NCBI GenBank assembly: GCA_051294375.1
Contig: CM119264.1
Span: forward strand, 16,217,245 to 16,281,244
Reading direction: 5' to 3'
Length of the DNA: 64,000 nt
Source: Paraspadella gotoi
Lineage: Eukaryota; Animalia; Chaetognatha
Position numbers and translations under genes: made by a program. Positions 2,341 through 57,900 of this stretch are shown piece after piece. Position 1 is the stretch's first letter. Each line of letters opens with the position of its first letter. Below the pieces are notes generated by a model. The model was not told where the DNA came from. It was given only the letters and a program-made list of their open reading frames with translations, and searched no databases.

Positions 2341-2365
2341 NNNNNNNNNNNNNNNNNNNNNNNNN

Positions 2366-13030: not shown

Positions 13031-13405
13031 GTATGCATAACTTTTTTGAAGTATGCATTACTTTTTTTAAAATATGCATACTTTTTCAAGTATGCATACT
13101 TTTTTTCAAAGTATGCATACTTTTTTAAAAGTATGCAATACTTTTTTGAAGTATGCAATACTTTTTTTTTAAATATGCATAATTTTTCAAAGTATGCATA
13201 CTTTTTTTCAAAGTATGCATACTTTGAAAAAATCTGATGCCTACTTTTTTCAAAGTATGCATCTACTTTTTTTTGAAAAGTATGCATTACTTTTTTCAAA
13301 GTATGCCATACTTTTTTCAAAAGTATGGCATACTTTGGAAAAAAGTATGCATACTTTTTTCAATGTATGCATACTTTTTTTCAAAAAGTATGCATACTTT
13401 TTCCA
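13004..13405. repeat. Palindromic ~19-20-bp minisatellite (AAAGTATGCATACTTTTTTC)
   Basis: About 20 tandem units, each centred on the palindrome AAAGTATGCATACTTT. Confidence 0.95.
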
Positions 13406-25340: not shown

Positions 25341-28300
25341 CGTTCAAGAGCGTCCTTGTAGTTTTGATACTGTGGAAGAAGATGTGCCTTTGCAGCAAGG
25401 GCATGATTGAGGTCAAGAGAGGTTCGGGCTACCCGGGTTGCAGGTGCAAAGGCTTGAACGCTGCCCAACCGCCGAAAACCAGGTTGGACGAGACCGAGCT
25501 GTGGATAGGCGGACATTAAAGTTATAGGTTACGCGTTACAACTAGTTACTTATGGACCTATTATCGACATCCAATATGTAATAAAGTTACTAGAAATTAG
25601 ATTCACGAGATGATTCATAGGGCGAATAAGAATTTCCCAACGAGCAGCCAATACACTAATACTGTTAGTTCGAACAATCAGACACTTTGGTAACATACCG
25701 GCAATCGAGCGACTGTGAGCGAGGGTGGCTTTTGCTTAAGCGTAGTCGGGGGAGTGGGAGGTTCGTCGGCGTCATCATCGTCGGAACTGAGAACAATATC
25801 CCCATCGTCGTCGACTGGGCGAACTTTCCGAGAAGTTGGAGCGGAAGTGCCAGAGTTCACTGCGTCTCCACACGTCGACTCCTAAGAGAAAAAAATATTT
25901 TAAGGTCGGGAATTAAACGAGTAAATACGGTAAATACATGGTGACAATTAAGGGGTGAACTTAGGTAATATTTTACCTGATTAACTGAGCAAAGTGTTTC
26001 TGAAATTGCCTAGGTAAAGAAATGATTTTTCTTAATTAATATAGGCAATTTCTGAATCAAAATATTTTGCTTATATTTATTTTTAAAGATAAAAAAAACG
26101 ATATATTTTCTTTTGTTTTAATTTTGTTATCAACTATATTTTTAATTTGTTATTACGATATTTTAAGCCCAAAAATACTTTTCCCAGATGGTATGAAATA
26201 TTATTATCAATAGTAGCATGGCATTAAGTCTGTAATCTACTTGGCTACTACCAGAACCAGAACCAATAAAATTATTAAGGAAGATTAATTCATTGATATT
26301 AATTAATTAATTCATTAATTAACAGATAATAAAGAAATTAGTAATAATAATGAGGATGTATACATTTAAAGAGATTTGCAATGTACGTAATTCAGTTGTA
26401 TCCTGATATGATTGACAAGATTAAAACCTCGATCAAAGATGATGTAACAATGTACCCAAGACTCAAGTCGCCCAAAAATATTTTGTATCTTATTAAGAAT
26501 GACAAAGCTTACTAGAATTCTTTGCAGAATATGATATGGATTACTCAATACCTCCCAAGCTGATTATATTAAAAAATTCGAGCTCAATATAGAAAGTAAA
26601 TATCCTATGGATATAATTTTTAAATATTGTGTTATTTCTTTCTTTCGTTGTGTTTTTAAGATTTAGAGAGAAAAAGAATTTCTTTAACAACAACGACTTT
26701 TATTATGATTAAACATACATATTTCGACTTAATTTGTAAATCTTCATCAGTGCTTATTTAATTTTGATTTAAGTTTTTGTTTCACAAATAAACAGTAAGA
26801 AGGATGGAGGGAAAGAGAGAGAGAGAGAAATAAATGTTTCTAACAAAGAAATCAAAAAAGGACAGTGGTCAGTTTTGAGGACAGGGTAAGTTTGAGCAGA
26901 TAGAGAGAAGGTGGTGAGGAAAAGAAATTAAAATTTGGCAGAGAGAGAGAGGGAGATGCAGAGGTCAACAATTAGATCAATACATTATACATCTTATACA
27001 TTATACATCTTACTTTCTCTCTGCCAAATTTCAATTTCTTTTCCTCACCACCTTCTTTCTCTCTGCTCAAACTTACCCTGTCCTCAAAACTAACCACTGT
27101 CATTTTTTTAATTCTTTGTTGGAAACCTTTATTTCTCTCTCTCTCTCTTTCCCTCCATCCCTTTCACTGTTTACTTGCGAAACAAAAAATTATGTACTCT
27201 CAAAACTAAATAAGCACTGATAAAGACTTGCAAATTAAGTCGAAACATGTATGTTTAATCATAATAGAAAACATTTTTGTTAATTTTTTTTTTCTCTCTA
27301 AAAATCCAAAAAAGTTTTCCTTCTATTTTTTCATCATTAACAAAGATTTTAACTCAAAATAAAAAATGACATTTTTGAACATTCTGAAAAATGTTTATCT
27401 TTATTAAAATCAACTATATAATGGACTCCAACCCCTGTCACCAAACTTGGTTAAATCTGAATAAATATTTTTAGCTATTAATTTTTTTTTACAAAATTAT
27501 TTTGTCTTTTATTAAAAAAATTTCAATGTTGAGCAAATTAAAGTTTTATATTTGATAAAGATTTTGTTTAAAAATTAATACCAAAAAATAACCTATTTTG
27601 TTATTTTTTTAATTTTAAATTTAATTTAATATTATTTGGTTTTAAATTATTGAAGATAATATTTCCCTTTTAAATCTTAGCAAATTAGATCATAAGTTTG
27701 TCAGTTATATCTTAGTTTTAAAGCTCAATTAAAAATTGCCTACTTTTATTCAGTGAACTACTAGGTAAACCAAAAATTTGTCTATTACCTATTTAAGAAA
27801 AAAAATTTGCCCAAGTTCACCCCTTAGTCGGTTATTCATTTTTCGCTTATGTGAGATGTATAGAAATCTCGCTATGCAAAAACAAACAAAAGACACTGGT
27901 AAGGGTAAAAAAACTTTTTATTACAATTTTATATAAACTTCCCCTAACTACGACTAACCCCTAACCCTAACCACCAGTAATCCCTAACCAACCCTAACCA
28001 CCCCTAATCTCTAACCACCCATAACCAATTAACCATTATTGACCCAATTGCTAACCGTTTTAAAAAATATAATATAATTTTTTTTTTTTTTTTCATTTCG
28101 TTGCGTTATTTGTTTGAGGTAGAAAATTGATTATGTATAATGGCTTCATCAGCGCAAAAATTAATTGAAAGAGTCTGTGAAAATATTTGTTTCACAAATC
28201 AAGGATGTCCCAGGAGGGGTAATAAAACCGTAAATTCGACATACTACATAAGAAAACTGATTAAAGTGCAACATATTAAACCTCGTCGTGAGAAGTGGCC

Positions 28301-31300
28301 GTAGATTCTGAAAGGGGAGGAGGGACCGAGATGACTTTTGACTGGTTCACATCGGCCGGTCCAATCGCGGAAGCCGGAGTCGGAGATGAAGAAGGAGAAA
28401 CGCCCAAAAATGATTCCGCTGAGTGGATATAGATAATCCCATTCAACAATGAATTCAAAGATAAGTAAAACTTATGAATGAAGAATATGGAAGTTCGATC
28501 ACCATCGTCGTCGAATTCATCGTCGTCAAATTCTTCTTCGTCGAATTCATCGTCGTCAAATTCTTCTTCGTCGTCCACTTTTTTTTCGTCTCCACTCTCG
28601 ACATCGGTTGACTGTGTCGAACTCCGTTTTACTTTAACTGGTGTTACGATATTTTTCGTAGGTATTTCTGCGAACAAATTATTGCTTATTAGATATTACT
28701 TGATAACTTTAATAAAACACATTCGTGTTTTACCAGCGGGAGGATTCAAGTTAAGAAAATTATTCGCATTATTACAACAGCATTATAAACAATAAAATCA
28801 AATCATCCAGGAAGATAAATTTTAATTTGGAAATTATCCATTTGATCTAACCGGTTTCATGATCGTCGTCATTTTCTCCGAGAGCCGTCATTGTCGACGG
28901 ACTAGGTGTCCTCAGGCCGTCGGGCGGTTGAGGTGTTTCCGTCTCTTTCGCCTCATCCACTTCTTCCTTTACTGTCGGTATCGGTGTTTCGACCTCAGGT
29001 CCTGGGGCAGATCCTCCAAATTCCGCTGAGTTTAAAATAGCTTCCAAATCCTGAATACAAAATATACAGAAGGATTCATATTATAAAATATGGTACCCCT
29101 TTTTTGTGACCAGAACACGTTCCGAGAAAACTATTGAATAGATTTTAATGAAATTTGGTAGGAACGATCCCTATGTGAATACAAATAAAAATATCGAGGC
29201 GAATTTCAATATTTGACCCCTGAGCCGAGATATGGGGCCCAGTAGGGGTCACTCATGGGGGCAAAATATGGTCAAAATTTGTTTTTAATTTTTTTGGTTT
29301 TTTTTTTGTTTTGAACAGTTGCCCAGACGTTTACTCTTCCACAAAATGTATATATTTTCACAAAAATGTTAGTTTACCATAAGTTTCAGCTTCATGAACA
29401 TCAGCTGTTCAAGTCAGATTTAGAATAATTCTGTAGACATTGTATTTTGACTTTCTTTTTGTTATTTAAAATAGTTTAGAGATGAAACGAAAAATTCGTT
29501 GTAATAGCAATTTTATTTTATTATGTGTACATGTTTTGACTCTTAGTATTGCGAGTCTTCATCAGCAAGTGAGTTCAATAAACCAAATTTTTTAAAACAT
29601 TAATTTGAGAGAGAGAGAGAGAGTTTCCAACAAAGAATTGAGCAAGGATAGTGGTCAGATGTGAGGACAGGTGAAAGTAGGGAAAGAGAGAGCAAATGAT
29701 TTTTGAAATTGGTGAAAAGAAAGAGAGAGAGAGAGAGACACAGGGATCATACATTAGGCAATGTACAACAGTGAAATTTTTTTAGAAAAAACTAAATATT
29801 TAACAAAAGTGATAATAAATTAATTGTTAGCTGATGATTATTAGTAAGGGAAAATGAAATAGAGGAATAAGTCATGAGGGATAGATAAGTTAAAGATAAG
29901 TGAAATAGTAAGGTAAGAAAAGAGCTCAAAATGAGTTGGGGGCCCCCCCCCCGGCCGGGCAAAAGTGGGACGTTAATGATGTAGTCGGGTCATTGGCCTG
30001 TCATAGGCTGAGATGATATTGTGGTGGAATGGGACAGGGCTGGATCTGGTAATGATCCGGCTGGAAAAATGCTGAGTGCCACTCGAATATCTGACCTGAT
30101 AGGCCTGCCAAGGGCCCTCCTCTCACCTGACGGTGAGGTGGGCGATTGCCTGTTCAGGCCTGTTTGGGGACAGGTGATACAGACTACTCTCCCTCCTCTT
30201 GCAGCTGTCGTTTTGGGCGACGCTCAGCACGAGAAGAGTCGCGCCAAGTTGCTGCAAGCTCGGTTGAGGCATCGGACGTCCATTGCCTGCTGAGAGGCCT
30301 CCGCTGACCCGTTGAGTGAGGACAGGGGAATCACCATGTGGCTGAGGTGGGTGTGGGTGCTTCATTACAGCTTTGATAAGCGAATCATAGCTTGGAGGGA
30401 GTTCGAATTGTCCTCCATCACGGTTCAAAGAGGGTTCGAGGGCCTTGATGTAAATTGCCTCTCTAATACCTCTTGAGAACCAGTTTTGGTCATGGGACAG
30501 CACGAGACAGTCTTCCTCTCTAAACAGATGGTCCATAGTTGTTGCGTGCTCGGCAACTGCCGACAGATAGTGCACTCTAGAGTCGCGATAGGGCTTGATA
30601 TGTTGGAACTTATCTGATAGAGACTTTCCTGTCTCGCCCACATATGCTGCTGTGCGGGGTTGGTTGCTCGCTCCTGCACAGGCCGCACAATAGATGGCTC
30701 CTGTTGTTTTCGGTCTGGGGATTTTGTCTTTCGGTTTTACCAATTGCTCACGTAAAGAGCCGTTGGTCGTCACTGAACTGGAGATCCCCTGCTTTGCCAG
30801 CACCCGCACCAATGATTCAGTGATCCCCTGGTGGTAGGGGAGGGACAAGTGACCCACATTCTTGAGACGCTTCTATCTCCCGTTTGCGCTGTGGTGGGCG
30901 CGGTCGGTCCTTCAACAGCAAGGTCTCGTTCACCCTCCTGGGGGGTGGAGATTAAACTTGCGTCAGCGGTAACTTGGACAGCCCCTTGGTTGCCACCGTC
31001 CTCAGCCAAGTTCTGCCGAAACCTAGCCTTCTCGACAGCTGCAAGAGGGAGAGGAGTCTGTATCACCTGTCCCCAAACAGGCCCGAACAGGCAATCGCCC
31101 ACCTCACCGTCAGGTGAGAGGGCCCTCGGCAGGCCTATCAGGTCAGAGATATTCGAGAGGCACTCCGGCATTTTTCCAGCCGGATCATTACCAGATCAAG
31201 CCCTGTCCCATTCCACCACAATATCATCTCAGCCTATGACAGGCCAATGACCCGACTACATTGTTAACGTCCCACTTTTGCCCGGCCAGGGGGGCCCCCC

Positions 31301-33258
31301 CCCCAACTCATTTTGAGCTCTTTTCTTACCTTACTATTTCACTTAGCTTTAACTTATTTATCCTCATCACTTATTCCTCTATTTCATTTTCCCTTACTAA
31401 CAATCATCAGCTAACAATTAATTTATTATTACTTTTGTTAAATATTTAGATTTTTCTAAAAATTTTTCACTGTTGTACATTGCCTAATGTATTGATCACT
31501 GTGTCTCTCTCTCTCTCTCTTTCTTTTCACCAATTTCAAAAATCATTTGCTCTCTCTTTCCCTACTTTCACCTGTCCTCACATCTGACCACTATCCTTGC
31601 TCAATTCTTTGTTGGAAACTCTCTCTCTCTCTCTCTCTCTTCTCAAACTAATATTTTAAAAAATTTGGTTTATTGAACTCACTTGCTGATGAAGACTCGC
31701 AATACTAAGAGTCAAAACATGTACAATAATAAAATAAAATTGCTATTACAACGAATTTTTCGTTTCATCTCTAAAGAATAATTCTGGTAAATTTGGAGAA
31801 AAACGATGAACCATGCATCTTCAAACACCGATTAATTAGCAAAAAATTATTAATTTTAGTTGTAAAAATGTTTTTATATGTTCAAAACATCGATGAACCT
31901 GATTCTACTAAAAAAATTATAAAAAATGAAAAAAAAAAATTTTAGCCTTTTTTGGCCCCCCAGAGGTCCAGCCCCAGGGCCCTGTATCTTTTGTCAGGGG
32001 ATGAATATTAAAATTCGCCTCGATAGTTCCATTTATATTGTCATTAGAACTCTAAATGTAAAATTTCATGAAATTCGATCCAGTGGTTTGGTGGGAACAG
32101 ATTCTGGTCACAAAAAAGGGGTACGCCATTTTATAATATGAAGCCCTCTTGTATATGCGAGGAATTAAGTTAGCGTTTTATATTTAAGTGTCAGCGAAAA
32201 ATATCAACAAACAAAATTGTGGGAAAGGTTGCCTTGAGGGGATTGAAGGCGTGAGGAAATAGAGGGAGAATCGTATATTTTGCGAAGAGCAGAAACTAGA
32301 GAATGTATCGCTAGAGTAGAAAAAATTATACTGAGGGGCAGGAGGAGGAGGAAAGAAGAGGAAGAGGAGAATTGGACGGCAAGCCAAATCCTCCTCTGCT
32401 CTGGTTGCAAAAACTGTTGATATTGTTGATATTTACGTCTAAATAATTAAGATCAAAATGATAAATCTATAAATGGTTTTAGGTAAAATAAAATATTCCG
32501 GTCTATTATATTTTATAAAATTGAGGAAGGAAGATAATATCATCAAATTTCATCATGTACTAAATAAATGTTACTTTAGTTGAAGCTTAAAAATAAAAAA
32601 CACAAAAAAGCAAATTCGCAAAACCTTGTCGTCAGAAGTGTCAGCCTCCCTCAGTGCTATTTCCAACTGCGTCAATGCTTCCATCTCCTCTGCGGATATT
32701 TGCTCGCCCATTGCCTGGAGCGCTCGCATGCGCTTAAGTTTCTGCAACCTGACCATTTGCCAGGAAAAAATAAGTTATTCATGGCACGAAGGACATTTTT
32801 TGAGAAACAACTTACCTTTGTATCCTCTCGAACTCTGCCTGTTGGGCGTTAACCGTCTCTTCATCGAGATCGCTCTCATTCATGACGGACCTAATATTTT
32901 TTCTTTTATTTTTTTTCTTTTTTCTTCGCCCCGTCTTCGTCGTCTTCATCGCCCTCGGTTGTCTTCTTTCGCCTCCTCCTCTTGGGTTTCTCCTCGCCCG
33001 TTCCCTCTTCCTCCGCTTTCTCTTCGGCTTTTCTCCACCCAAATCGTTTCCCGCTTCTTTTTTTCCTCCGCCTTTTCTTCTTGGGTTTATCCTCTTTGGC
33101 AGCCTGGTCTGGCTCTATAAGTGAAGGGATTTCGTCGGCATTACCCGGTGGACCTTGGTCGATTATCGGCAATTCGCCGAAGAAGCCATCATCCTTGCTT
33201 CGTTTTCGTCCTCGGAGGACGGAGAAAGGAGGTTTGGCTTTCGGTGATTCGTGTCCAT
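25341..33258 (-). CDS. N-terminal exons of a probable SNF2-family remodeller (RAD54L2/ARIP4- or ATRX-like)
   Basis: Predicted exons ~33258-32816, 32748-32625, ~32400-32220 (noisy), 29050-28852, ~28670-28280, 25883-25698 and 25498-25341, mostly with GT-AG boundaries. KRKNIRSVMNESDLDEETVNAQQAEFERIQRLQK resembles the ARIP4/ATRX segment preceding the ATPase. DIVLSSDDD is a SIM-like acidic motif. No helicase exons seen. Confidence 0.6.
26710..26756 (-). ncRNA. Minimal hammerhead ribozyme
   Basis: taagca-CTGATGA-A-GATTT-acaaatt-AAGTC-GAAA-TATGTA-tgttta. Stem I taagca/tgttta; core intact. Confidence 0.75.
27211..27257 (+). ncRNA. Minimal hammerhead ribozyme, G8A core variant
   Basis: taagca-CTGATAA-A-GACTT-gcaaatt-AAGTC-GAAA-CATGTA-tgttta. 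Confidence 0.7.
27830..28200 (-). repeat. Repeat with degenerate (CCCTAA)-like tract and hammerhead remnant; related to 47860-48170
   Basis: ctaacccctaaccctaaccacc... tract, plus reverse-complement similarity to 48030-48170. cttcatcagcgcaaaaa at 28144 matches the 47.8-kb palindrome. Confidence 0.65.
29525..29568 (-). ncRNA. Hammerhead motif in 3' pLTR (G12A variant)
   Basis: ttg-CTGATGA-A-GACTC-gcaatactaa-GAGTC-AAAA-CATGTA-ca. Confidence 0.7.
30123..30857 (-). CDS. Penelope GIY-YIG endonuclease domain (C-terminal part of the PLE ORF; RT missing)
   Basis: LPY..GITE.L.RVL, LVKPKD, GAIYCAAC...YVGETGKSL, SAVAEH.....H (CCHH), REAIYI and PSLNRD.G. Confidence 0.92.
   Translation of the reverse strand: MGHLSLPYHQGITESLVRVLAKQGISSSVTTNGSLREQLVKPKDKIPRPKTTGAIYCAACAGASNQPRTAAYVGETGKSLSDKFQHIKPYRDSRVHYLSAVAEHATTMDHLFREEDCLVLSHDQNWFSRGIREAIYIKALEPSLNRDGGQFELPPSYDSLIKAVMKHPHPPQPHGDSPVLTQRVSGGLSAGNGRPMPQPSLQQLGATLLVLSVAQNDSCKRRESSLYHLSPNRPEQAIAHLTVR
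31683..31726 (+). ncRNA. Hammerhead motif in inverted 5' pLTR (G12A variant)
   Basis: ttg-CTGATGA-A-GACTC-gcaatactaa-GAGTC-AAAA-CATGTA-caa. Confidence 0.7.
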
Positions 33259-40792: not shown

Positions 40793-40869
40793 NNNNNNNN
40801 NNNNNNNNNNNNNNNNNAGTTTCAGCTTCATGAACATCAGCTGTTCAAGTCAGATTTAGAATAATTCTG

Positions 40870-43053
40870 TAGACATTGTATTTTGACTTTCTTTTTGTTA
40901 TTTAAAATAGTTTAGAGATGAAACGAAAAATTCGTTGTAATAGCAATTTTATTTTATTATGTACATGTTTTGACTCTTAGTATTGCGAGTCTTCATCAGC
41001 AAGTGAGTTCAATAAACCAAATTTTTTTAAAACATTAATTTGAGAAGAGAGAGAAGAGAGTTTCCAACAAAGAATTGAGCAAGGATAGTGGTCAGATGTG
41101 AGGACAGGTGAAAGTAGGGAAAGAGAGAGCAAATGATTTTTGAAATTGGTGAAAAGAAAGAGAGAGAGAGAGAGACACAGGGATCATACATTAGGCAATG
41201 TACAACAGTGAAATTTTTTTAGAAAAAACTAAATATTTAACAAAAGTGATAATAAATTAATTGTTAGCTGATGATTATTAGTAAGGGAAAATGAAATAGA
41301 GGAATAAGTCATGAGGGATAGATAAGTTAAAGATAAGTGAAATAGTAAGGTAAGAAAAGAGCTCAAAATGAGTTGGGGGCCCCCCCCCCGGCCGGGCAAA
41401 AGTGGGACGTTAATGATGTAGTCGGGTCATTGGCCTGTCATAGGCTGAGATGATATTGTGGTGGAATGGGACAGGGCTGGATCTGGTAATGATCCGGCTG
41501 GAAAAATGCTGAGTGCCACTCGAATATCTGACCTGATAGGCCTGCCAAGGGCCCTCCTCTCACCTGACGGTGAGGTGGGCGATTGCCTGTTCAGGCCTGT
41601 TTGGGGACAGGTGATACAGACTACTCTCCCTCCTCTTGCAGCTGTCGTTTTGGGCGACGCTCAGCACGAGAAGAGTCGCGCCAAGTTGCTGCAAGCTCGG
41701 TTGAGGCATCGGACGTCCATTGCCTGCTGAGAGGCCTCCGCCTGACCCGTTGAGTGAGGACAGGGGAATCACCATGTGGCTGAGGTGGTGTTGGGTGCTT
41801 CATTACAGCTTTGATAAGCGAATCATAGCTTGGAGGGAGTTCGAATTGTCCTCCATCACGGTTCAAAGAGGGTTCGAGGGCCTTGATGTAAATTGCCTCT
41901 CTAATACCTCTTGAGAACCAGTTTTGGTCATGGGACAGCACGAGACAGTCTTCCTCTCTAAACAGATGGTCCATAGTTGTTGCGTGCTCGGCAACTGCCG
42001 ACAGATAGTGCACTCTAGAGTCGCGATAGGGCTTGATATGTTGGAACTTATCTGATAGAGACTTTCCTGTCTCGCCCACATATGCTGCTGTGCGGGGTTG
42101 GTTGCTCGCTCCTGCACAGGCCGCACAATAGATGGCTCCTGTTGTTTTCGGTCTGGGGATTTTGTCTTTCGGTTTTACCAATTGCTCACGTAAAGAGCCG
42201 TTGGTCGTCACTGAACTGGAGATCCCCTGCTTTGCCAGCACCCGCACCAATGATTCAGTGATCCCCTGGTGGTAGGGGAGGGACAAGTGACCCACATTCT
42301 TGAGACGCTTCTATCTCCCGTTTGCGCTGTGGTGGGCGCGGTCGGTCCTTCAACAGCAAGGTCTCGTTCACCCTCCTGGGGGGTGGAGATTAAACTTGCG
42401 TCAGCGGTAACTTGGACAGCCCCTTGGTTGCCACCGTCCTCAGCCAAGTTCTGCCGAAACCTAGCCTTCTCGACAGCTGCAAGAGGGAGAGGAGTCTGTA
42501 TCACCTGTCCCCAAACAGGCCCCGAACAGGCAATCGCCCACCTCACCGTCAGGTGAGAGGGCCCTCGGCAGGCCTATCAGGTCAGAGATATTCGAGAGGC
42601 ACTCGGCATTTTTCCAGCCGGATCATTACCAGATCAAGCCCTGTCCCATTCCCCACAATATCATCTCAGCCTATGACAGGCCAATGACCCGACTACATTG
42701 TTAACGTCCCACTTTTGCCCGGCCAGGGGGGGCCCCCCCCCCAACTCATTTTGAGCTCTTTTCTTACCTTACTATTTCACTTAGCTTTAACTTATTTATC
42801 CCTCATCACTTATTCCTCTATTTCATTTTCCCTTACTAACAATCATCAGCTAACAATTAATTTATTATTACTTTTGTTAAATATTTAGATTTTTCTAAAA
42901 ATTTTTCACTGTTGTACATTGCCTAATGTATTGATCACTGTGTCTCTCTCTCTCTCTCTTTCTTTTCACCAATTTCAAAAATCATTTGCTCTCTCTTTCC
43001 CTACTTTCACCTGTCCTCACATCTGACCACTATCCTTGCTCAATTCTTTGTTG

Positions 43054-43101
<48 letters not shown>

Positions 43102-43228
43102 CTAATATTTTAAAAAATTTGGTTTATTGAACTCACTTGCTGATGAAGACTCGCAATACTAAGAGTCAAAACATGTACAATAATAAAATAAAATTGCTAT
43201 TACAACGAATTTTTCGTTTCATCTCTAA
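40870..43228 (-). mobile_element. Second copy of the inverted-pLTR Penelope element (GIY-YIG ORF 41621-42295; hammerhead motifs ~40960-41003 and ~43137-43180)
   Basis: Same arms, tail, TSD (40858-40869 and 43229-43240) and flanks as 29434-31774. Confidence 0.93.
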
Positions 43229-44084
43229 AGAATAATTCTGGTAAATTTGGAGAAAAACGATGAACCATGCATCTTCAAACACCGATTAATTAGCAAAAAA
43301 TTATTAATTTTAGTTGTAAAAAATGTTTTTATATGTTCAAAACATCGATGAACCTGATTCTACTAAAAAAATTATAAAAAATGAAAAAAAAAAATTTTAG
43401 CCTTTTTTGGCCCCCCAGAGGTCCAGCCCCAGGGCCCTGTATCTTTTGTCAGGGGATGAATATTAAAATTCGCCTCGATAGTTCCATTTATATTGTCATT
43501 AGAACTCTAAATGTAAAATTTCATGAAATTCGATCCAGTGGTTTGGTGGGAACAGATTCTGGTCACAAAAAAGGGGTACCGCATTTTATAATATGAAGCC
43601 CTCTTGTATATGCGAGGAATTAAGTTAGCGTTTTATATTTAAGTGTCAGCTCGAAAAATATCAAGGCAAACAAACAATTGTGGGAAAGGTTGCCTTGAGG
43701 GGATTGAAGGCGTGAGGAAATAGAGGGAGAATCGTATATTTTGCGAAGAGCAGAAACTAGAGAATGTATCGCTAGAGTAGACAAATTATACTGAGGGGCA
43801 GGAGGAGGAGGAAAGAAGAGGAAGAGGAGAATTGGACGGCAAGCCAAATCCTCCTCTGCTCTGGTTGCAAAAACTGTTGATATTGTTGATATTTACGTCT
43901 AAATAATTAAGATCAAAATGATAAATCTATAAATGGTTTTAGGTAAAATAAAATATTCCGGTCTATTATATTTTATAAAATTGAGGAAGGAAGATAATAT
44001 CATCAAATTTCATCATGTACTAAATAAATGTTACTTTAGTTGAAGCTTAAAAATAAAAAACACAAAAAAGCAAATTCGCAAAAC

Positions 44085-44718
44085 CTTGTCGTCAGAAGTG
44101 TCAGCCTCCCTCAGTGCTATTTCCAACTGCGTCAATGCTTCCATCTCCTCTGCGGATATTTGCTCGCCCATTGCCTGGAGCGCTCGCATGCGCTTAAGTT
44201 TCTGCAACCTGACCATTTGCCAGGAAAAAATAAGTTATTCATGGCACGAAGGACATTTTTTGAGAAACAACTTACCTTTGTATCCTCTCGAACTCTGCCT
44301 GTTGGGCGTTAACCGTCTCTTCATCGAGATCGCTCTCATTCATGACGGACCTAATATTTTTTCTTTTATTTTTTTCTTTTTTCTTCGCCCCGTCTTCGTC
44401 GTCTTCATCGCCCTCGGTTGTCTTCTTTCGCCTCCTCCTCTTGGGTTTCTCCTCGCCCGGTTCCCTCTTCCTCCGCTTTCTCTTCGGCTTTTCTCCACCC
44501 AAATCGTTTCCCGCTTCTTTTTTCCTCCGCCTTTTCTTCTTGGGTTTATCCTCTTTGGCAGCCTGGTCTGGCTCTATAAGTGAAGGGATTTCGTCGGCAT
44601 TACCCGGTGGACCTTGGTCGATTATCGGCAATTCGCCGAAGGAAGCCATCATCCTTGCTTCGTTTTCGTCCTCGGAGGACGGAGAAAGGAGGTTTGGCTT
44701 TCGGTGATTCGTGTCCAT
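44085..44718 (-). CDS. Duplicate first two exons of the ARIP4/ATRX-like gene (44718-44276, 44208-44085)
   Basis: Open frame MDTNHRKP...KRKNIRSVMNESDLDEETVNAQQAEFERIQR, then LQKLKRMRALQ..; GTAAG donor. Confidence 0.6.
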
Positions 44719-45429
44719 GTTGGAAACAGCTCGTTCAAAGAAAATATTTCGCGCCGAATGACGGCTAGAATCAATTCAGTTCCATACCGTTTTTACAGAT
44801 AAAAAGTGGGACCCACATCAAGCATTAAAAATAGCTTTAGTTTAAAGGATGAATGTTTTTGAATTAGCTTTCTAAAAAGCTGAACCCCGATGAGAAAAGA
44901 TGGGAAAATACTAAATAGAGAAGATTGAAATTTTCAATCAAATCTCGCAAATTCAATAAGACTCAGTTAGGAAAGACGAATTAAAAAAAAATTAAAAAAA
45001 CATTCACAATCCAATCCATGGGCACTTAAAAGGTTTCGAGGGGTCTTAAAATTCAAAAAAAGTTAGAATAGGTTTGAAAGTAGTCCTATAGTGTTAAAAC
45101 TGGATAAAGAAGATTATTTCTGCAGATAGTTCGGAAACCAAAAAACTTCTTAATACAATTTCATAATTCACAAATTTTAATAAAAACTGTAGTTTCCGTT
45201 TGTACTTAATCAGGCAATTCGATGGTTCGAAAATATCCAAGAAAACTTTTTTAATTGTAAAAATACTAATAGTATGATGAACTCCAATATAAACTATATC
45301 CGAGGCTTTCGAGCATGTTCCATTATAAAATTGTTAAAAAAAGTTAGATTTATTATGAAAATATAATCAGGTGTTAAAAAAGAATAAGGGTGGTAAAATC
45401 AAAAGAGAAAAAAAATATTCAGTAGAGTA

Positions 45430-47305
45430 TAGTGCGGGGTAATTCGGAACATTTGAAGTAAAAAAAATTTGCATAGAAAATATAGATATTTTTATAATTT
45501 TTTCTGGTGATATATCCAGGAAAGTGTCCTCACTACTGGTTTATGCCGTCTTTTTCCACAGGGGCCGCATTTTTAAAAAAATTGAAAAGTGTTCTGTTTT
45601 ACCCCCACTGGGGTACTTCGGAAGACTTAATATATTATGTATAATTTTTTATACAATCAAAAATATTAACTAATGTTTTAAGTATGAAAAATTGTAAATC
45701 TTATATTCTTAACTTGGTAAAATAAATTTTAATATTGTTCTCACTTTTAAAAAAATATTGAATGACAATAAATATATATTTTTGTTAATAGTATTTTTGA
45801 CACAGTTTTCCTTCCATTCCTGCATTTTGTCCCCATCTTCCTTTCCAATTAACATTGGTTTTCGGCCCATTTTTTTTATTTCCAATGTTATTTTTATTAT
45901 TCTTTTTATTAATCCTTTTTATTTAACCTTATTAAATTTAAATTTTTTTTCTTTCCAAATATTTTTATTTATATTAATTTTATCTTAATTTTGTTTCAAA
46001 CTAATTTTTAAACCTTATTGAGAGATTAAATTCCATTTCAAACTTTTATATATTTTTTATTGCTAAAAATAATTTTTTTACTTTAATATGTATAGTATAA
46101 TAATTTTTTTTGTCTAATTATTTAACAAATGTTACTAACTGTTATTATTACTTAGTAAATTATCACTATCAAGTTATAAAAAGCATATGAGGTAACACAG
46201 AACACTTACTTTACAGGTAGGGGTAGCCGCACTCAATAGGGTGAGTCAAAAATTTAGAGTACATGCTCAAACGAATATTTAAACATTTTTAAGAATACTT
46301 TCAATGGACAAAAAATTTATAATATGGCTCTATACCCTAATTTTTTAATATTTATTTATAGATAGGAAAAGCCAAAAATTTTTTTAGAATTTTTAAATTT
46401 TAAAACCAGATTCAGATAGCTGTTAAAAAGTATGATTCTTTTTTAAATATTTTTACGATAAGTGTATCAAAAATAAGAAAAACCTTAAAAAATCATCATC
46501 ATCATCATTTTTCGATGATTTTATCAGCTTTTTTTATATTTTCACTTAGAAAACGTAAGAATTTTTAAAAGCTGTAATTATATTTCTTGTTTAACTTTTT
46601 ATGCTCTATCAGAATCCATCAAAAAATTTTTAAGATTTAAAAAAAAAATTCTTGCTCTATATAGTAATATAATATTTTTAATTAGGCTAGTACCCTCAGA
46701 AGAAAGTATTTTTGAAAAAAACTATTTTAATACCATAATCTATAGTCATGATAGATTATTTTAATGCTGTATACATTAGCATTTAAATTTCATCCGCTAT
46801 GGCTATTACAGGTGTTCCGTTTTACCCCAATTTATGTAAATGTAATGTAAAAATTGAGGTATTTTTTAAAAATAATCTATACAATAACTATAAATTTGTG
46901 GAAAAGGCGCTAAGTGGGCTGAAGACTACTATCCGCATCTTCTGTGCCCCCTCAGCAGCAATGGAACGGGTCGTGGGCTTTGAACCAGGCTTGGGAGTTT
47001 TCCACGCCCCCAAGGCGGTTTACGGCCGTCTTCACGTTTCCCGCAGGGTAGATACCGGGTTGGGATTAAACCCGGTACTCATTATTATTCCATAATCATT
47101 ACGTCAAATATGAATGTGACAGGCCTGAAAACGACAAAAACGACGAAAATTGACTAGCATCTTTGAAATTGCTGATGCAGCTGCAATGCTGTAACTTTAA
47201 TAATGGAATATTGGTGAAATATTTATTGCACTAAAAAAAATATAAAATTTTATTATATATAATTTTTTGTATATAATTTTATGTGTTCCGAATTACCCCG
47301 CACTA
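45430..47305. mobile_element. Non-autonomous DNA transposon with perfect 22-bp TIRs including TA (Tc1/mariner-pogo-like ends)
   Basis: tagtgcggggtaattcggaaca (45430-45451) and tgttccgaattaccccgcacta (47284-47305). Confidence 0.75.
46940..47085 (-). mobile_element. SINE family D body
   Basis: Matches 10835-10950 and 15780-15812. Confidence 0.55.
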
Positions 47306-47779
47306 CCCTGCTAATCGATGAGCATTCAACGTATCTGATTATCGAACGAACCGACTTTTCTACGCTCTAAATATAACCTAACTCATAAGGAAAAAAATCT
47401 TTAAAGTATAGTGATCTCGCCAGACGTTACTATCAAAGAAAATTAATAAAAAATTCTAAAAAAAAAACAACGAATGATTGATGCGATAACGAATTATTGA
47501 TGTAATAATAATTGATTGATGTAATAGTAATTGAGGGTAACTTAACTATTCAACGTCCGCAACCAACTTTAGGTACCACCAGTCGGTGCTTTGTTAATCC
47601 ATTTAATTTTGTTTCCCTCTAGCGTCGAGTCTCAGTTTGTACAATAATATATATTTTTTATTCAGTAATAAAATTTTATAATAAATAATAATAGTTTTAA
47701 ATTTATTTTAATTGCTATTTTTAAGTTTGATATAAAATGAATTATTTGTTTACGTATGAGTTTTATAAAGAAACAAATT

Positions 47780-47821
47780 TTTGACATGTTTCAGCTTCAA
47801 TGTAAGCTTTTATCAGCGCAA
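47780..47821 (-). ncRNA. Minimal hammerhead, G8A core variant
   Basis: ttgcg-CTGATAA-A-AGCTT-acattg-AAGCT-GAAA-CATGTC-aaa. Confidence 0.65.
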
Positions 47822-47916
47822 AAACAAATTGATTTGTGCAACAAATATTTTTACAGATTCTTTCTCTCTTTTCAAACTCCACAGTCGGTGAAAATACTTC
47901 ACAAATCAATTCGTTC

Positions 47917-47959
47917 TTGCGCTGATGAAGGTTTACATTGAAGCCGAAACATGTCCAAA
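47917..47959 (+). ncRNA. Minimal hammerhead ribozyme, intact core
   Basis: ttgcg-CTGATGA-A-GGTTT-acattg-AAGCC-GAAA-CATGTC-caa; GUC cleavage triplet at 47953-47955. Confidence 0.8.
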
Positions 47960-48916
47960 ATTTGTTTCTTAATAAAACTCGTAGGTAAACAAACAAAGAA
48001 AGGAAAGGAAAAAAAACTATTATTTTTATTTTATATTTTTTAAACAGTTAGCAATTGGGTTAAGGTTGGTTAGGGATAAAGGGCGGTTAAAAATTTGTAA
48101 TAAAAAGTTTTTTCACCCTTACCAATGTCCTTTTTTTAATTTTGCGTATCAAGATTTCTATACATCGCTCAACCGAAAAAAAAAATAACCTACCGCAAAA
48201 TCCCGGTCGGCATATGTAAAAATAAGCTGTAATTATTAATGCGACGATAACCAAATATTGATGCGACGATAACCAAATATTCATGCAACGATAACCAAAT
48301 GATGGATGCGATGATAACCAAATGATGGATGCGATGATAATCATTCATTGATGCAATGATAATCATTCATTTATGTGATGATAGTCATTGAGAGAGAGAG
48401 CGACATATAATTAGAAAGAGAGAGAAAAAGAGAGAGAAATAGAAAAAAACTGGACAGCCGCTGCAGAGCTGAACTTGTCTATGTATATAAAAATTGTTTT
48501 GTAAATAAAACAAACAAATGAGTGTAGGAATATGAAACATAATTTAAAAGACCTTAATGATAAGAAGCCATATCTAAATTTTCAGCTTCCTATGATTATC
48601 AATGTTAAAACAGCGTGACGACGATTTCGGTCAAAAAACGCAGAAACGAATTAACATCTCGCCCAAGTCGGGCATCAGCCCGTCTGGCGAGATATTCTAT
48701 TATATTTTTCTTCGTTTCAATTAATCTAAATATTAATATTAATCTTAATATTCCTAATTTTTAAGCAGTAAGGAATGTCGGACGAAATTCGAAATTGGAG
48801 GTGGTTCGGATGCAATCGCCGATCGAACAAAACGAAACGGAGGGATTCGGATTGATAACGATATGTTTTTGTTTGGTCTTGGTCATTATTAGAAGGTTAT
48901 CGTGTGCCGATGACGC

Positions 48917-51900
48917 TCACTGACTTTTGAGATGGGAGTTCTGCCTATCAAGGCGCGTGTTCTGCCTCTCCACGCGACTCCGTTGATTGTGAAGAGGGGG
49001 ACGGTCCGGATCACCCGAATCTCCAGCTTTTTCAGTCTCGTTGTTTCGGGTGGCATTATAGTCCATTATATCAGCGAGCGTTTCAGATACAAACGTCCTA
49101 TGGAGAGGCATTTAATAATTTATTTGTAGAAAAAATTATCTTTATAAAGTTCAGATAAATATAAAGTAAAATCATCAACTAATCTACTGTAGTATTGTGG
49201 CGCCTCACATCCACCATCTTTCAGTCAATCCTATTGGCTCAGAGGGGGAACGAACCATCCGAAGCGTTACATTCCATCCACAGTCCTAATGACTTCCCTC
49301 TGCGAGATCATCCTAGGGTAAGCGCACCAGTGACAGGAGTCGTCACTGAGGGTCTGTACTCTGTAGCCCCTAAAGCCAAAAGTGAGATGCCCCATCCCAA
49401 TGGGCATCACTGGCAACCCAGCTGTTGCTATAAGTAGTGCGTCTTATTATCTCTCTCCCACAAAGGTAGCAGTCTTGTAAGACACCTCTCAAGCCTGGAG
49501 AATAAAGCTAACAAAATATTAAAATCAAGTAGAATCAAAATCGCGAATAGTATATCACGAACAGGCTTGTACCTGTGAACATTTTTAAATAAAAAAAAAA
49601 TAATTTTTGTCAATTTTCGTATACGCCAATATTTATACATACTACTCACCATAGAAAATGTTAAAATTTTAACTTTTTCTAAAAGCAGATTCGAATTCCT
49701 AACGAAAAGTTGATATAAGGAAATATAACTCTTTTTAAAAATATTTTTCATTAAGTGGGTCAAAATCCCAAAAAAATTTATATTTGACCTATAATTGAAT
49801 TTTAGTATAAAAAATATAATTTTTTGAATTTTTGGCTAACTTAATGAAATAATTTTTGATTAGGACTTATATTTTCTTTTATCAACTTCAATTCAAATTC
49901 AAATTCGCTTTCAAAACTAAGAAAACATTATTTTAAAATTTTAACATTTTCTATGTATAAATATGGGCATATGCGAAAATTGACTGTTCATGATCAACTA
50001 TTCGAATTTTAATCTGCAACTTTCACTACGCCTTACTGGAGAACCTGAATAATGTCTTGGACCTGAGACCCTGTGGTGGTATATTCACACTGCCTCACAT
50101 CCACCATCGTTCAGCCAATCTCATTGACTCAGAGAGGGAATGCACCTTCCCAAGCGTTACGTTACATCCCTACTAACGACTTTCCTCTGCGTTAGTAAAG
50201 CGAGAATGTCCTTGGCTAACCGCGCCAGTGACAGGAGGCGTCACTGAGGGTCGGTAACCCCGAAAACCCCATCCGAATGGGCAAACCAAGCAACCCGACT
50301 GTTGATATAGTATACTATCTAGGAAAAAAGTATATCACATTTTTAGTAGAGGATATCTACTTGAAAACTTTCCTGATTTAAAAAAAAAAAATCAGAACGT
50401 TTCCGAATCTACACTGAATTTCCTTTCAGTAGCTTCCTTCCATTTTTTCCTACAAGGTGACACACGACAGCCCGCCGCTAACAAAAAATCGTTATTTGCA
50501 AACTTGTGAAGATTTTTTTAATCTGAAAGATTTTTTTTGTAGTAAAAACCTAAATCATTTATATATATAAATTTCATATTGATTGGTTATGATTTGACTT
50601 GGCAATGACCGGGAAAAAGTTGCTTTAAAAAACGTCATTTTAAAACAAATCTTTTTTTTTTCAATCTCCTTAACTTAATGAACATTTTTTAAAGAAATTT
50701 TACGTAAAAAGGTATCAATATTAATATCTTCTGAAAGCTCTTGAAAATTTGAAAAAAAAGATATATTTAAGAATATAGTAACATAAAAATGAGCCTAACC
50801 AGCTTTAGTTTAATCAAAATAATTTAAATTTAAATTAAAATAATAAAATCCTAAAATNNNNNNNNNNAGTTATTTTTTTTTTTAATTTGGTAATGCTAAA
50901 GGGATTTCACATCTTTTTGGTTAAAAAAAAAGGCCATTATAGCTGACAGAAAAGAGAAAAGAGGCGCAACATCAACATAGGGGCAGAAAAGAATTACATT
51001 AAAGGTGTGGAAAAACATTTCACTGTCATACCTCAATTCGCTGTACAAGAGCATACCCAGACGAATGCAGGCAGTAGTCGATGCCGAAGGAAAGTATTCC
51101 AAATATTGATAATGTTTTACCCATGTTTTGTATATTTTTTATTGAATAAATGAATTTTTAAACAATTATGTGATATACTTTTTTCGTAAATAGTAATAGT
51201 ATAAATCCTCTTTAAAATTTATTACAGACTCGCCTAATTAGCTTTCTGTAAAGCGGAGCGACGAAAACATCCCAAATGAAGTCGGCCGTCAAATCAATAT
51301 ACAATCCGGCATCGCGGAACTCCCCGCTGAAGCGGACGAAAGACCAAATGGAGAAGAGGATCATGTCAGTGTATAGAAGGATCGTAAACAGGTTTGCGAG
51401 AGAATAGACACGGCATAACCCGAGGAGGGAAGAGATCAGGTAAAGAAGGACCATCGTAGCAAAAAGTACGCCGGGTGTTCGAGCCGAGGAAAACACGTTC
51501 TTGCTGTCATTGTGTTTCTGAAAGCTGACCCAGAGTTCGTCCACGTCTTCATCGAGTTGGTCGCGAAAATTGCGACTAAAAGCTGCTCCACCCATCTTCG
51601 GGGTTTTCTCGAACAGCTCCTCAGCCTTCTTGCGAGCGGACTCGTGTTCCTTGGCTAGCGCTTCAGGATGCATGTACGATGTGCCGCCTCCACAAACGTC
51701 CTCCATTAGACGGGTGTAAAGAAGTTTGGCTTTGGCAACTGCTGCCAAGTTATTAGCTTCGGCGGTCGCCTGTAGCATAGATTTTGGTTCAGGAAGTGTG
51801 TCGCCCTGCATCGATGTGAACAAAATTAGATTTTGTGAAGTCTATTTCACGATTAATAATGCTAGTAAGCATTGTGAAAAATATTCTACCTGGTATATTT

Positions 51901-54900: not shown

Positions 54901-57900
54901 TGATTTTTCTCGTTTGTAACATTTCGAGATAGTATATCTAACAGATATTAGATATTATCTATGCAACCGTAAAATTTAAAAAGATTAATGATAGTCGGTT
55001 TTGAAGGTCTCGGTTTGGTATTTTATATGATAATATAATACAACATACTTGTAATGAGTCTTCTTTATTTAGTGACTGTCTATTAAGTGGAGGTCAAATT
55101 TGAAACTTCAAGAATGCAATTTTCCAATTTTTTCTGATATCTTAAAAGTATAGTTATCTCGCCAGACGTTACTATCAAAGAAAATTAATAAAAAAATTTA
55201 AAAAATGATGAGCGGGGTTTTCCGTCAGTTGCTCACCCTTCTGAGAATATCTATATCGTAGGATTTAATGAGTCTTTAGAGATCAAGAACTGGAGGTAAG
55301 CAAAAGGCAAGCATCGGTTAACGATAGTAACAACAATGACCTCTCAGGTAAGCTCGGTTTAACCACTATTCAAACAACATAAAACCGTAATAATAAACTC
55401 TAAACATAAAAACCAATAACCATATATATAAAAACCCCGACGATGGCCAACTAACATTAATGCGATCTGTATGAAATAGATTAATCAGAGAAATGAAATA
55501 ACAATGAACTGTATTGTTTGTAAACAAATATTGATTGTTTATATTTTTAAACAGTTTTACAAAAGGCGAATAAGAACGACGAATTACGACGAGAGTTTAC
55601 GTCCAAAAAAAAAAAAGAATGATCTATGCGATAACGAAATATTGATGTAATAAAAATAATAATTGATTGATGCAATAGTAATTGATTATTGATGCGATGA
55701 TAAGTAAATATAGATGCGATTATAACCAAATGATTAATGTGACGATAACTAAATGATTAATGCGATGATAACCAAATGAAGGATACGATAAGCAATAATA
55801 ATTGATTGATGTAATAATAATTGATTGATATAACAGTAATTGATTATTGATGGTATTATAACCAAAGGAATGATGCGATGATAGTCATTAATAATCATTC
55901 ATTGACGCGATGATAGTCATTCATTGATGCGATGAGTCATTCATCAATAATTAAGCAGAAATAAGCTAATCCGAAGATGATAAATCACAGTAATTTTTTC
56001 TGATTTTCAATTTGTGATCTTAACAGATCATAACAAATTTTAATTAAAAATCATAACAGACTTTTTAAGAAATCAATAAAAAAAACCTATAAACCAATTA
56101 ATCTATCAATCATTAACAGTAGCTGCGCCATACCAACATGCATAATTTGGTCAACTTGCATTATTTGATCAACTGGCGTAATTTGATCAACTGGAAAATT
56201 TGGTAGACTGGTATAACTTTGTCAATTGACGTAATTTGGTCAACTGGCATAATTTGGTCAATCAATCAATCAGAGAGAAAGAAAGAAATTCAAATAAATG
56301 AGTAAATATGTTGGACATAAACTCGTTGTAATTTGTCGATCTTATTTGCTTTTTGTAAAAATGTTTGAAAATATAAACAATCGATATTTGTTTACAAACA
56401 ATACAGTTCGTTGTTAAATATATTGGTTATACTAATTTCATAAGTCAAAATACTTCAATTAAATATGACTTTTATTTTTTTCTATTTAAACTAATTTCCA
56501 AACGCACAATTTTATCAAAACTATGTCCAGCTCAATCACACACTTTCCTACCCACACACGAAAATTCATTCCAATCCATCCATCCAATCGCAAGTAATTG
56601 GAGTTTAATGCTAAGGGGGGACAACGGATGGACATTTTTTTTGCATAATTTATCATAATTCGATGTTCTGATATGATAATGATTTACCGACAAGGTTTTG
56701 GGGTGGGACCGACGGACCGACAAAGTGGAATATAGAGTTGGAATCTGTTGCTAAGCAGATCCATCTAATAACAAACAAATGCGTGTATGAGTGAGAGAAA
56801 AAAAATAAAGATAGAGAGAAGCTGGACAGCCTCTGCGACGGAAAAAGAGAGAGAAATAGAAGCTGGACAGCCGCTGCAGACCTGAACTCGTCTATGTATA
56901 TAAAAATTGTTAATAAAAACAAATGAGTGTAGGAATATGAAACAAAAATTTAAAAGACCTCAATGATGCGTGACGACTACGGTCAAAAGAAGCAAAAACA
57001 AATTAACATCTCGCCCAAGTCGGGCTGTCGCCCGTCTGGCGATGTAAAAAGCATTTAAAAATAAAGCAAAAATAAATATTAAGTAATGAACATGTAGCAT
57101 TTTTTTTCCTCTTTATGCACGAAAACAAAACCTGTACCAAGTTTTAAAGAATAAAAAAAAATTATTTTATGTTACCCATTTAATAAAATTCTTTAAATTT
57201 TATATTTTTTTAAATTAAAAAAAATCATTTAAACCAGCCAAGATTTTATAAAAAAAATCATATCATTATTTCAAAAATTTACTAAGCACCTAAGCATTAA
57301 AATAATATAATATTGAATAACAGGCAAAATACTACATATTAAAAGTAAAAAAAATCAAAAGTTGATCAACAAATAAGATGAATTCATTGGGGCAAAGAAG
57401 TTAATACGAAAGACTTATGTAAAAATTGATCGATTTAAGGCCTGGGATCACTCAAACAAGAATTGCATAAAGCTTTATACAAATTGTTTTTATGCAATTT
57501 GCAAAAGAAGTATATTTCCTTCGTGTTTCAAATAACAAAAACTTTAAATTTGACTAAGGTTCAGCTTCAAGAGCCACCCAAAAATCGGGCAATTTTTTTT
57601 ATCGGTAAACTTAAAAAATATAAACGTTTATGTAAAGAGAGTGCAGAATACATATTTAATGATGCCTAATACAATTTTTTTACTAAAAGAGTATTACAAA
57701 ATTGTACAATTTTTAAAGTCAAAGACAATTGTCCATTGGCATCTGCAGTTGGTCTCTAAGATAGAAACACTATGGTGCCATAGATGATTACTGATTCCAC
57801 AGATGGACAATCGTTATGCTCTCCTCTTGTCAATTAGTTTCTGTTCCCCACATTCAAAACTGGCTTTGAAGCTTGACCGTTTGCCACAGACGAAAATAAG

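What the first reader, a model, noticed from the sequence alone, without database searches (positions are those of the whole stretch)
47744..47996. Viroid-sized palindrome carrying a hammerhead ribozyme on each strand
Seen: ~95-bp inverted arms around a ~60-bp spacer, each arm holding a minimal hammerhead with palindromic stem III ACATGT. Stem II changes in a compensatory way between arms (GGTTT/AAGCC vs AGCTT/AAGCT). There is no ORF. Known: such minimal hammerheads mark Penelope pLTRs, and described retrozymes have direct, not inverted, repeats. Inference: this is a tiny non-autonomous fold-back retrozyme or MITE-like PLE derivative whose transcript of either polarity is a rod with a ribozyme.
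Basis: partly seen in the sequence, partly recalled or inferred. Interest (0 to 1): 0.8.

Follow-up and report, generated by a model that had tools for sequence, protein, structure and literature searches.

The report
Head-to-head stub of Penelope retrotransposon
This 255-base mirror-image repeat is real, but it is likely an ordinary leftover of a Penelope-type jumping gene (two short copies of its ribozyme-bearing end joined head to head, a layout already published), with one ribozyme mutated at a key base and both predicted to be locked shut in the folded RNA, so it is unlikely to be a viroid-like element.

Summary
The palindrome is real (97-nt arms, 89% complementary, z -20.6), with a minimal hammerhead (HHR) motif facing outward in each arm. 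The left core has G8A, stem I is weak, and in the full-length RNA both stem IIs have predicted pairing probability 0.

The arm is a repeat with roughly hundreds of copies; only about 2-12% of its contig depth continues into this spacer, and other inversion points exist. The window holds the same layout at 640 bp and at 2.3 kb, the latter around a PLE GIY-YIG fragment. Ten of 19 distinct similar motifs in unrelated metagenome contigs are also head-to-head. Opposite-strand min-HHR pairs 100-700 bp apart are in print (PMC4209133), and a word look-up returned 176 earlier notes of this scan, from at least 32 genomes, the eight shown describing this layout.

Verdict: likely a short head-to-head Penelope pLTR insertion, not a retrozyme or viroid. 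One modest twist: it sits inside a roughly 695-bp dispersed element, and some other loci share its centre and flanks, so it was probably copied further as cargo. No autonomous parent, TSD, RNA or cleavage was shown.

The parts
47742..47861 (-). Left arm: inverted, 5'-truncated copy of the HHR-bearing repeat end (97 nt ungapped plus about 23 nt of inner extension)
47783..47816 (-). Left min-HHR-like motif, CUGAUAA (G8A at 47811), stem II with A10.1-U11.1; predicted inactive
   Evidence: G at this place in 85-97% of laid depth in 4 of 4 runs
47720..47741 (-). Probable one-sided tail of the left arm (about 20 nt more of the family 3' sequence); weak support
   Evidence: loose-end consensus; alignment to the 28.1-kb copy is reached by 11 of 500 shuffles
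47862..47881 (+). Unpaired centre: CT-rich tract plus TCAAACT, likely the upstream continuation of the right (longer) copy
   Evidence: similar (CT)n-TCAAACT upstream of the PLE-linked motif at 31686, but weak alone: 17 of 500 shuffles
47882..47996 (+). Right arm: direct copy of the HHR-bearing repeat end, with AATAAA at 47971-47976
47922..47955 (+). Right min-HHR motif: intact core, extra A between positions 9 and 10.1, 5-bp stem II (47930-34/47941-45), palindromic stem III, predicted cut after C47955; stem I weak
47535..48228 (.). Roughly 695-bp dispersed, unclassified element that contains the palindrome, inserted in a host minisatellite repeat
   Evidence: mixed-flank loose ends at 47535 (23 contigs, X4) and 48227 (22 contigs, X1); uninterrupted host analogue at about 55605-55820
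27827..28202 (-). Decayed paralog with the same centre junction, part of the HHR arm and the right flank (to 48193)
   Evidence: 0 of 500 shuffles
26662..27302 (.). Second, 640-bp head-to-head palindrome with outward HHR-like motifs (27217 +, G8A; 26750 -); arms homologous to the PLE 3' end
29475..31775 (.). 2.3-kb head-to-head PLE insertion: GIY-YIG fragment (30123-30872, -) between inverted 3' ends with outward HHR-like motifs (29565 -, 31686 +; G12A) followed by AATAAA; duplicated at 40911-43229

Best explanation
The palindrome is likely a very short head-to-head insertion of a Penelope-like element (PLE): two 5'-truncated copies of the element's hammerhead-bearing end, one inverted, that would have been made by a PLE reverse transcriptase/endonuclease encoded elsewhere. 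Shown: the anatomy, the multi-copy arm, several inversion points, and the same layout at 255 bp, 640 bp and 2.3 kb in this window, the largest around a PLE endonuclease fragment. Inferred: the PLE enzyme nicked AT-rich DNA and copied only about 100-140 nt of the element's end on each side, so the two hammerheads are inherited parts of the pLTR and do no work here; the left one has since lost G8. Also inferred: this stub landed in, or was captured by, a roughly 695-bp non-coding mobile element and was copied with it to some further loci, which would explain the shared centre and flanks. If transcribed, it would give a long double-stranded hairpin (a likely small-RNA substrate), not a self-cleaving circle.
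For: Same layout around a PLE endonuclease fragment at 29475-31775. That ORF hits 5 proteins, all with RT annotation; 2 of the 3 scanned have RVT_1 plus a C-terminal GIY-YIG. The 640-bp palindrome matches that PLE end even without the HHR (0 of 500 shuffles), and this element matches the 640-bp one (0 of 500). Summed contig depth in X1 peaks at 16,861 over the arm against about 26-40 for single contigs, then falls to 1,219 at 47865-71, 348 at 47872-78 and 105 at 47893-99. Different inversion joints at 47840/47922 and 47814/47867, plus a shorter-centre fold-back in 6 contigs at 47857. Stem II pairing probability is 0.0 on both strands in the whole element against 0.69-0.99 in isolated arms. 10 of 19 distinct similar motifs in unrelated metagenome contigs have a head-to-head copy, spans 226-831 nt. 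Papers: PMC4209133, PMC3846280, PMC8557442; G8 substitution (G8C) kills a PLE HHR and cleavage is not needed for insertion in vitro, PMC11167929. Cargo step: paralog at 27827-28202; a 217-218-nt contig in X1 and X4 spans the same centre with 13-14 differences and then leaves the locus; joints link the left flank to the arm.
Against: No autonomous parent of this arm family was found: the direct match to the window's PLE end is weak (1 of 500 shuffles, mostly HHR core and CT tract; 383 of 500 downstream of the cut), so the link is indirect. No convincing TSD flanks the palindrome. Some loci share the centre, which is also what a unit mobilised on its own would give. Summed contig depth is not a copy number, and contigs break in repeats, so shared centres may be undercounted. 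The metagenome palindromes had no tblastn hit to three PLE proteins within 700 nt.
Confidence: 0.76

Rival explanations
1. The palindrome is a non-autonomous mini-PLE that is transcribed and retrotransposed as a unit; its flanks travel along as read-through.
For: Same centre at other loci: paralog at 28.1 kb, a spanning contig in X1 and X4, loose ends at 47865-47870 in X7 and X9 that continue CT-rich then TCAAACT-like. The G8A variant is 3-15% of depth, so it may have been copied more than once. pLTRs alone can mobilise sequence in trans (PMC3846280).
Against: Depth over the centre is about 2-12% of arm depth; other junctions exist. The loci seen to share the centre that could be followed also share up to 200 nt of flank, and the ends with mixed flanks lie at 47535 and 48227, not at the arm ends. 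No TSD. Recurrent truncation at one CT tract or RNA start could give similar centres independently (inference).
Confidence: 0.12
2. The whole 695-bp unit is a DNA-transposon- or Helitron-like element of which the hairpin is a structural part, and the hammerhead motif is not of PLE origin.
For: Sharp ends with mixed flanks at 47535 and 48227; end depth (10,000-18,000 in X1) is of the same order as arm depth; possible imperfect 6-8-bp duplication at the ends.
Against: The motif has the min-HHR traits of PLEs and is homologous to the 640-bp palindrome, which is homologous to a PLE end. Depth between arms and unit ends drops to about 750-4,000, and weak joints skip the palindrome (47711 to 48103, 47723 to 48090; sides 24-25 nt), which points to unit variants without it. 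No terminal inverted repeat was found.
Confidence: 0.07
3. A viroid-like or retrozyme-like element: transcripts of both polarities self-cleave and circularise as a rod.
For: Size (255 nt), rod fold and one HHR-like motif per strand; 3 of 10 metagenome palindromes keep both cores by a strict pattern.
Against: Left core G8A; stem II pairing probability 0 in the rod on both strands; stem I of 1 bp. One HHR per polarity gives one cut, not a unit-length monomer; no tandem copy. The rod is an intramolecular inverted duplication. Single metazoan min-HHRs did not cleave in vitro (PMC4209133).
Confidence: 0.03
4. Assembly artefact or chance.
For: The window has a 5.2-kb duplicate at 98.8% identity that may be a haplotype duplication; X1 shows no exact contig over 47900-47908.
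Against: Arms differ at 11 of 97 sites; contigs with 0 differences span the centre in X4 (47809-47943) and X5/X6 (47812-47931); z -20.55.
Confidence: 0.02

Closest known systems
Dual opposite-strand min-HHRs of truncated PLEs (Cervera and De la Pena 2014, PMC4209133; abstract, Results and Discussion read)
   Same: Minimal type I HHR with an unpaired base between positions 9 and 10.1, G10.1-C11.1 and a small palindromic helix III; two motifs about 100-700 bp apart on opposite strands, no ORF
   Different: Helix II is 5 bp (7-8 in S. mansoni); helix I is 1 bp or offset by 2 nt (4-5 bp there); left core is C3-A8, not their covarying U3-A8
EN+ Penelope-like insertions with inverted pLTR and one-sided tail (PMC3846280 and PMC8557442; passages read)
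   Same: Head-to-head inverted 5'-truncated copy, HHR near the 3' ends, probable tail at one end
   Different: No ORF or internal sequence; no clear TSD; parent ORF not identified; lies inside another dispersed element
Metazoan non-LTR retrozymes (PMC7229834, passages read; bioRxiv 10.64898/2026.07.22.740005, first fifth read)
   Same: Small, non-coding, low GC, type I HHR, PLE-related
   Different: Those are direct tandem repeats with at least two HHRs in the same sense and circular RNAs; this is inverted, one HHR per strand, one mutated
Hammerhead viroids and viroid-like circular RNAs with ribozymes in both polarities (recalled; only search listings seen)
   Same: Size, rod-like fold, a motif on each strand
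   Different: Genomic DNA; the rod is a near-perfect duplication that blocks both ribozymes; no circle or multimer shown

Membership tests
PLE min-HHR | Conserved core CUGANGA ... GAAA ... UH | tested here: met
   Right arm only (47922-47955); the left arm fails with G8A
PLE min-HHR | Unpaired base at 9/10.1, G10.1-C11.1, palindromic helix III | tested here: met
   Right arm meets all three; left arm has A-U at 10.1-11.1
PLE min-HHR | Helix I of about 4-5 bp next to the core | tested here: inconclusive
   1 bp adjacent, or 5 bp after a 2-nt offset; a 2-bp helix I is reported for D. virilis
PLE min-HHR | Self-cleavage as a dimer | not testable with these tools
   Needs an in vitro assay
EN+ PLE head-to-head insertion | Inverted 5'-truncated copy, head to head, HHRs outward | tested here: met
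   same at 26662-27302 and 29475-31775
EN+ PLE head-to-head insertion | Arm is the pLTR of an RT plus GIY-YIG ORF | tested here: inconclusive
   Indirect chain is significant (0 of 500 twice); the direct match is weak (1 of 500); no genome held to find the parent
EN+ PLE head-to-head insertion | Tail at one end | tested here: inconclusive
   About 20 nt extra on the left by loose-end consensus; 11 of 500 shuffles
EN+ PLE head-to-head insertion | Target-site duplication (optional in PLEs) | tested here: inconclusive
   Only AT-rich 6-8-mers at non-matching offsets
Non-LTR retrozyme | Direct tandem repeats with two or more same-sense HHRs | tested here: not met
   No tandem or direct copy
Non-LTR retrozyme | Abundant linear and circular monomer RNA | not testable with these tools
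   No run on record as RNA was listed
Viroid-like RNA with ribozymes in both polarities | A foldable, intact ribozyme in each polarity | tested here: not met
   G8A; stem II probability 0 in the full element
MITE-like unit | Many copies with the same ends, same centre and a TSD | tested here: inconclusive
   Centre depth about 2-12% of arm depth, several junctions, a few shared centres, no TSD; contigs undercount palindrome centres

The most novel reading that the evidence does not exclude
A Penelope head-to-head stub has become a fixed module that spreads as a unit, as cargo of a roughly 695-bp unclassified DNA element or by PLE enzymes in trans. It would seed tens of loci with a 250-nt hairpin whose ribozymes are disabled (family-wide offset stem I, G8A sub-branch) and which could feed double-stranded RNA against the parent PLE family.
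Probability: 0.3. Interest if true: 0.4.

Novelty: new member of a known kind. Interest (0 to 1): 0.2.

Why it matters
Mostly as a calibration case. Viroid-sized palindromes with a hammerhead on each strand are a routine by-product of Penelope-like elements and can mislead searches for ambisense-ribozyme, viroid-like RNAs in animal data. The 255-bp / 640-bp / 2.3-kb series in one window is a clear example of the still unexplained inverted PLE ends. If the capture by a second mobile element is confirmed, it would be a small new route by which ribozyme-derived hairpins spread.

Tried and rejected
No whole genome is held, so copies could not be counted or aligned directly. Rfam found no hammerhead; the MIR1444 match was rejected as a generic hairpin. 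The family-specific pattern found 0 matches in metagenome contigs. The look-up by sequence found no look-alike window; the look-up in this genome returned 6 notes, all on twister elements and not used. No RNA holder listed; X5 is only guessed to be RNA and gives the same depths as X6, so the two were treated as one data set and not as expression evidence. Pfam on 6 window ORFs gave one hit, GBP/atlastin, and none on the endonuclease ORF itself. Host phylum not resolved: best named atlastin hits are about 53% identical, to a nemertean, a chiton and a bivalve. TSD and terminal-inverted-repeat scans were negative or weak. A telomeric EN-minus PLE (Athena/Terminon) reading was considered because of TTAGGG-like repeats at 48058-48085 and set aside: they are G-rich on the HHR strand, interstitial and belong to the flank; not tested further. 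In some searches, 83 of 110 metagenome matches were dropped for lacking a 4-bp stem II or H17 (8 of those 83 also had an inverted copy), and 27 were reduced to 19 distinct motifs. PMC5785218 (dimer cleavage of PLE HHR variants) is not held; only its title and a review's summary were seen. Literature searches showed no listing on a PLE palindrome carried by another element; most subscription papers are not covered, and no supplements were read (the S. mansoni alignments in PMC4209133 could bear on helix I).

Full report
Observation. The palindrome is there: arms 47742-47838 and 47900-47996, 97 nt, 89% complementary, 61 nt apart, 11 mismatches, MFE -124.7 kcal/mol, z -20.55, 0 of 200 shuffles as good. 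Pairing continues inward with a 4-nt gap, leaving a CT-rich loop of about 23 nt. Contigs with no differences span the centre in X4 (47809-47943) and X5/X6 (47812-47931), so it is not an assembly artefact. The host is an AT-rich invertebrate animal; atlastin exons lie at 51.2 and 61.5 kb, and the phylum was not resolved.

The ribozymes. The right arm (+, 47922-47955) has an intact core, an unpaired A before a 5-bp stem II, G10.1-C11.1 and palindromic ACAUGU. These match traits described for PLE min-HHRs (PMC4209133, Results and Discussion read). The left arm (-, 47816-47783) reads CUGAUAA: G8A with C3 retained. Of the laid family depth, 88%, 85%, 97% and 91% has G there in X1, X4, X7 and X9. 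A G8 substitution (G8C) abolishes cleavage of a PLE HHR (PMC11167929, parts 1-2 of 4 read); that G8A does the same here is inferred. Stem I is poor in both arms: 1 bp next to the core or 5 bp after a 2-nt offset. The offset appears family-wide, since no deletion there is listed. Stem II forms in isolated arms (P 0.86-0.99 right, 0.69-0.79 left) but has P 0.0 in the whole element on either strand. The compensatory stem II change is real but is a family variant: at 47808, 37% of X1 depth has the left-arm base, and at 47793, 71% (both subject to reference bias). Rfam does not detect the motifs.

The arm is a repeat; the centre mostly is not. No genome is held, so I laid Logan contigs of 6 of the 9 holder runs. 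With 47725-47908 as target, summed depth in X1 peaks at 16,861 against about 26-40 for single contigs. That suggests hundreds of copies, though the tool warns that summed depth is no copy number. Depth falls from 9,446 (47844-50) to 2,874 (47858-64), 1,219 (47865-71), 348 (47872-78) and 105 (47893-99); X4, X7 and X9 show the same shape. Almost all copies therefore end near the centre, but few continue with this spacer. Other inversion points are seen: opposite-strand joints 47840/47922 and 47814/47867, and 6 X1 contigs that turn back into the arm after 47857. The tables were cut (15 of 54 joints shown; 24 of 152 loose-end rows).

Some centres are shared. A 217-218-nt contig in X1 and X4 spans 47836-47963 with 13-14 differences and 12 gap letters and then leaves the locus. 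Loose ends at 47865-47870 in X7 and X9 continue with a CT tract and TCAAACT-like sequence. In the window, 27827-28202 (-) is a decayed paralog with the same junction, part of the arm and the right flank to 48193 (0 of 500 shuffles).

An outer element. Contigs with long, mixed flanks end at 47535 (23 contigs, X4, agreement 0.45) and 48227 (22 contigs, X1, agreement 0.48). The host minisatellite on both sides is continuous at about 55605-55820. So 47535-48228 is a dispersed insertion that contains the palindrome. Joints and diverged contigs link its left part to the arm at other loci (47604 to 47746, 47618 to 47740), and weak joints skip the palindrome (47711 to 48103, 47723 to 48090; sides 24-25 nt). 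No terminal inverted repeat and only an imperfect 6-8-bp duplication were found, so its class is open. I infer that the palindrome is cargo in a subfamily of it.

The PLE link. The window holds the same layout twice more. 26662-27302 is a 640-bp palindrome with outward HHR-like motifs. 29475-31775 (duplicated at 40911-43229) has inverted 3' ends with outward HHR-like motifs (G12A) and AATAAA around an ORF fragment. That fragment hits 5 proteins, all RT-annotated; of the 3 scanned, 2 have RVT_1 plus a C-terminal GIY-YIG, and tblastn maps their C-terminal parts to 30869-30360 (E 9e-28). The 640-bp arms match this PLE end even without the HHR (0 of 500 shuffles), and the 255-bp element matches the 640-bp one (0 of 500), but its direct match to the PLE end is weak (1 of 500). 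It therefore likely comes from a related PLE family whose ORF is not in the window.

Generality. A relaxed motif scan of metagenome contigs (half the collection scanned) gave 110 loci. 27 had a stem II of at least 4 bp and H17, and 18 of those had an upstream inverted copy. After merging duplicates, 10 of 19 distinct motifs were head-to-head, spanning 226-831 nt, 3 with both cores intact; none of the 110 loci hit three PLE proteins by tblastn. In print: dual min-HHRs about 100-700 bp apart on opposite strands (PMC4209133); head-to-head inverted pLTRs with a one-sided tail as the typical Penelope structure (PMC3846280, passages; PMC8557442, passages). Retrozymes are direct tandem repeats (PMC7229834, passages; bioRxiv 10.64898/2026.07.22.740005, part 1 of 5). 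PLE HHRs likely need dimers (PMC6765202, passages). A word look-up in this scan's notes returned 176 findings in at least 32 genomes; the 8 shown describe the same kind of palindrome (unchecked AI notes, used only as leads).

Mechanism. Shown: anatomy, multi-copy arm, several junctions, size series, G8A. Predicted: both ribozymes masked in the rod. Inferred: a PLE RT/endonuclease made two short cDNA copies of the element's end and joined them head to head. Whether by self-priming fold-back (proposed in PMC3846280) or by two primers was not resolved; the arms differ at sites that are polymorphic in the family, which fits either two templates or later copying of diverged arms. HHR cleavage is not needed for PLE insertion in vitro, so disabled ribozymes are no obstacle. 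Further copying as cargo of the outer element is inferred from shared flanks.

Verdict. A new member of a known kind, interest 0.2. The retrozyme or viroid reading gets about 0.03. Spread of the palindrome as a unit (as cargo or by PLE enzymes in trans) into tens of loci gets about 0.3 and would merit about 0.4.

Noticed in passing
window 47535-48228: Dispersed roughly 695-bp element with sharp ends, no clear terminal inverted repeats and an internal TTAGGG-like tract (48058-48085), inserted in a minisatellite repeat; class unknown
   Followed up: partly
window 26662-27302: 640-bp head-to-head palindrome whose arms derive from a PLE 3' end; one of its two HHR-like cores also has G8A
   Followed up: partly
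window 29475-31775 and 40911-43229: PLE endonuclease fragment between inverted 3' ends; all four HHR-like motifs have G12A
   Followed up: partly
window 14649-14690 (+), about 15381-15461 (+), 11797-11827 (-): A third min-HHR family: one near-complete motif with a 3-bp stem I and two fragments
   Followed up: partly
window 29382-34564 and 40818-46037: 5.2-kb direct duplicate at 98.8% identity, including a coding exon; recent duplication or haplotype duplication in the assembly
   Followed up: no
window 13007-13418 and 19475-20671: Arrays of a self-complementary 20-bp unit next to a 22-bp minisatellite, within a repeat shared between 11827-13415 and 18363-19940
   Followed up: no
window 62860-63117 and 49609-49984: Two more AT-rich inverted repeats without a hammerhead core; possibly MITEs
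   Followed up: no
window 51212-51841 and 61284-61769 (-): Exons of an atlastin gene; the palindrome lies about 3.2 kb downstream of the last coding exon seen
   Followed up: partly
L003, L022, L043: Head-to-head palindromes of 317-707 nt with both hammerhead cores intact in unrelated metagenome contigs
   Followed up: partly
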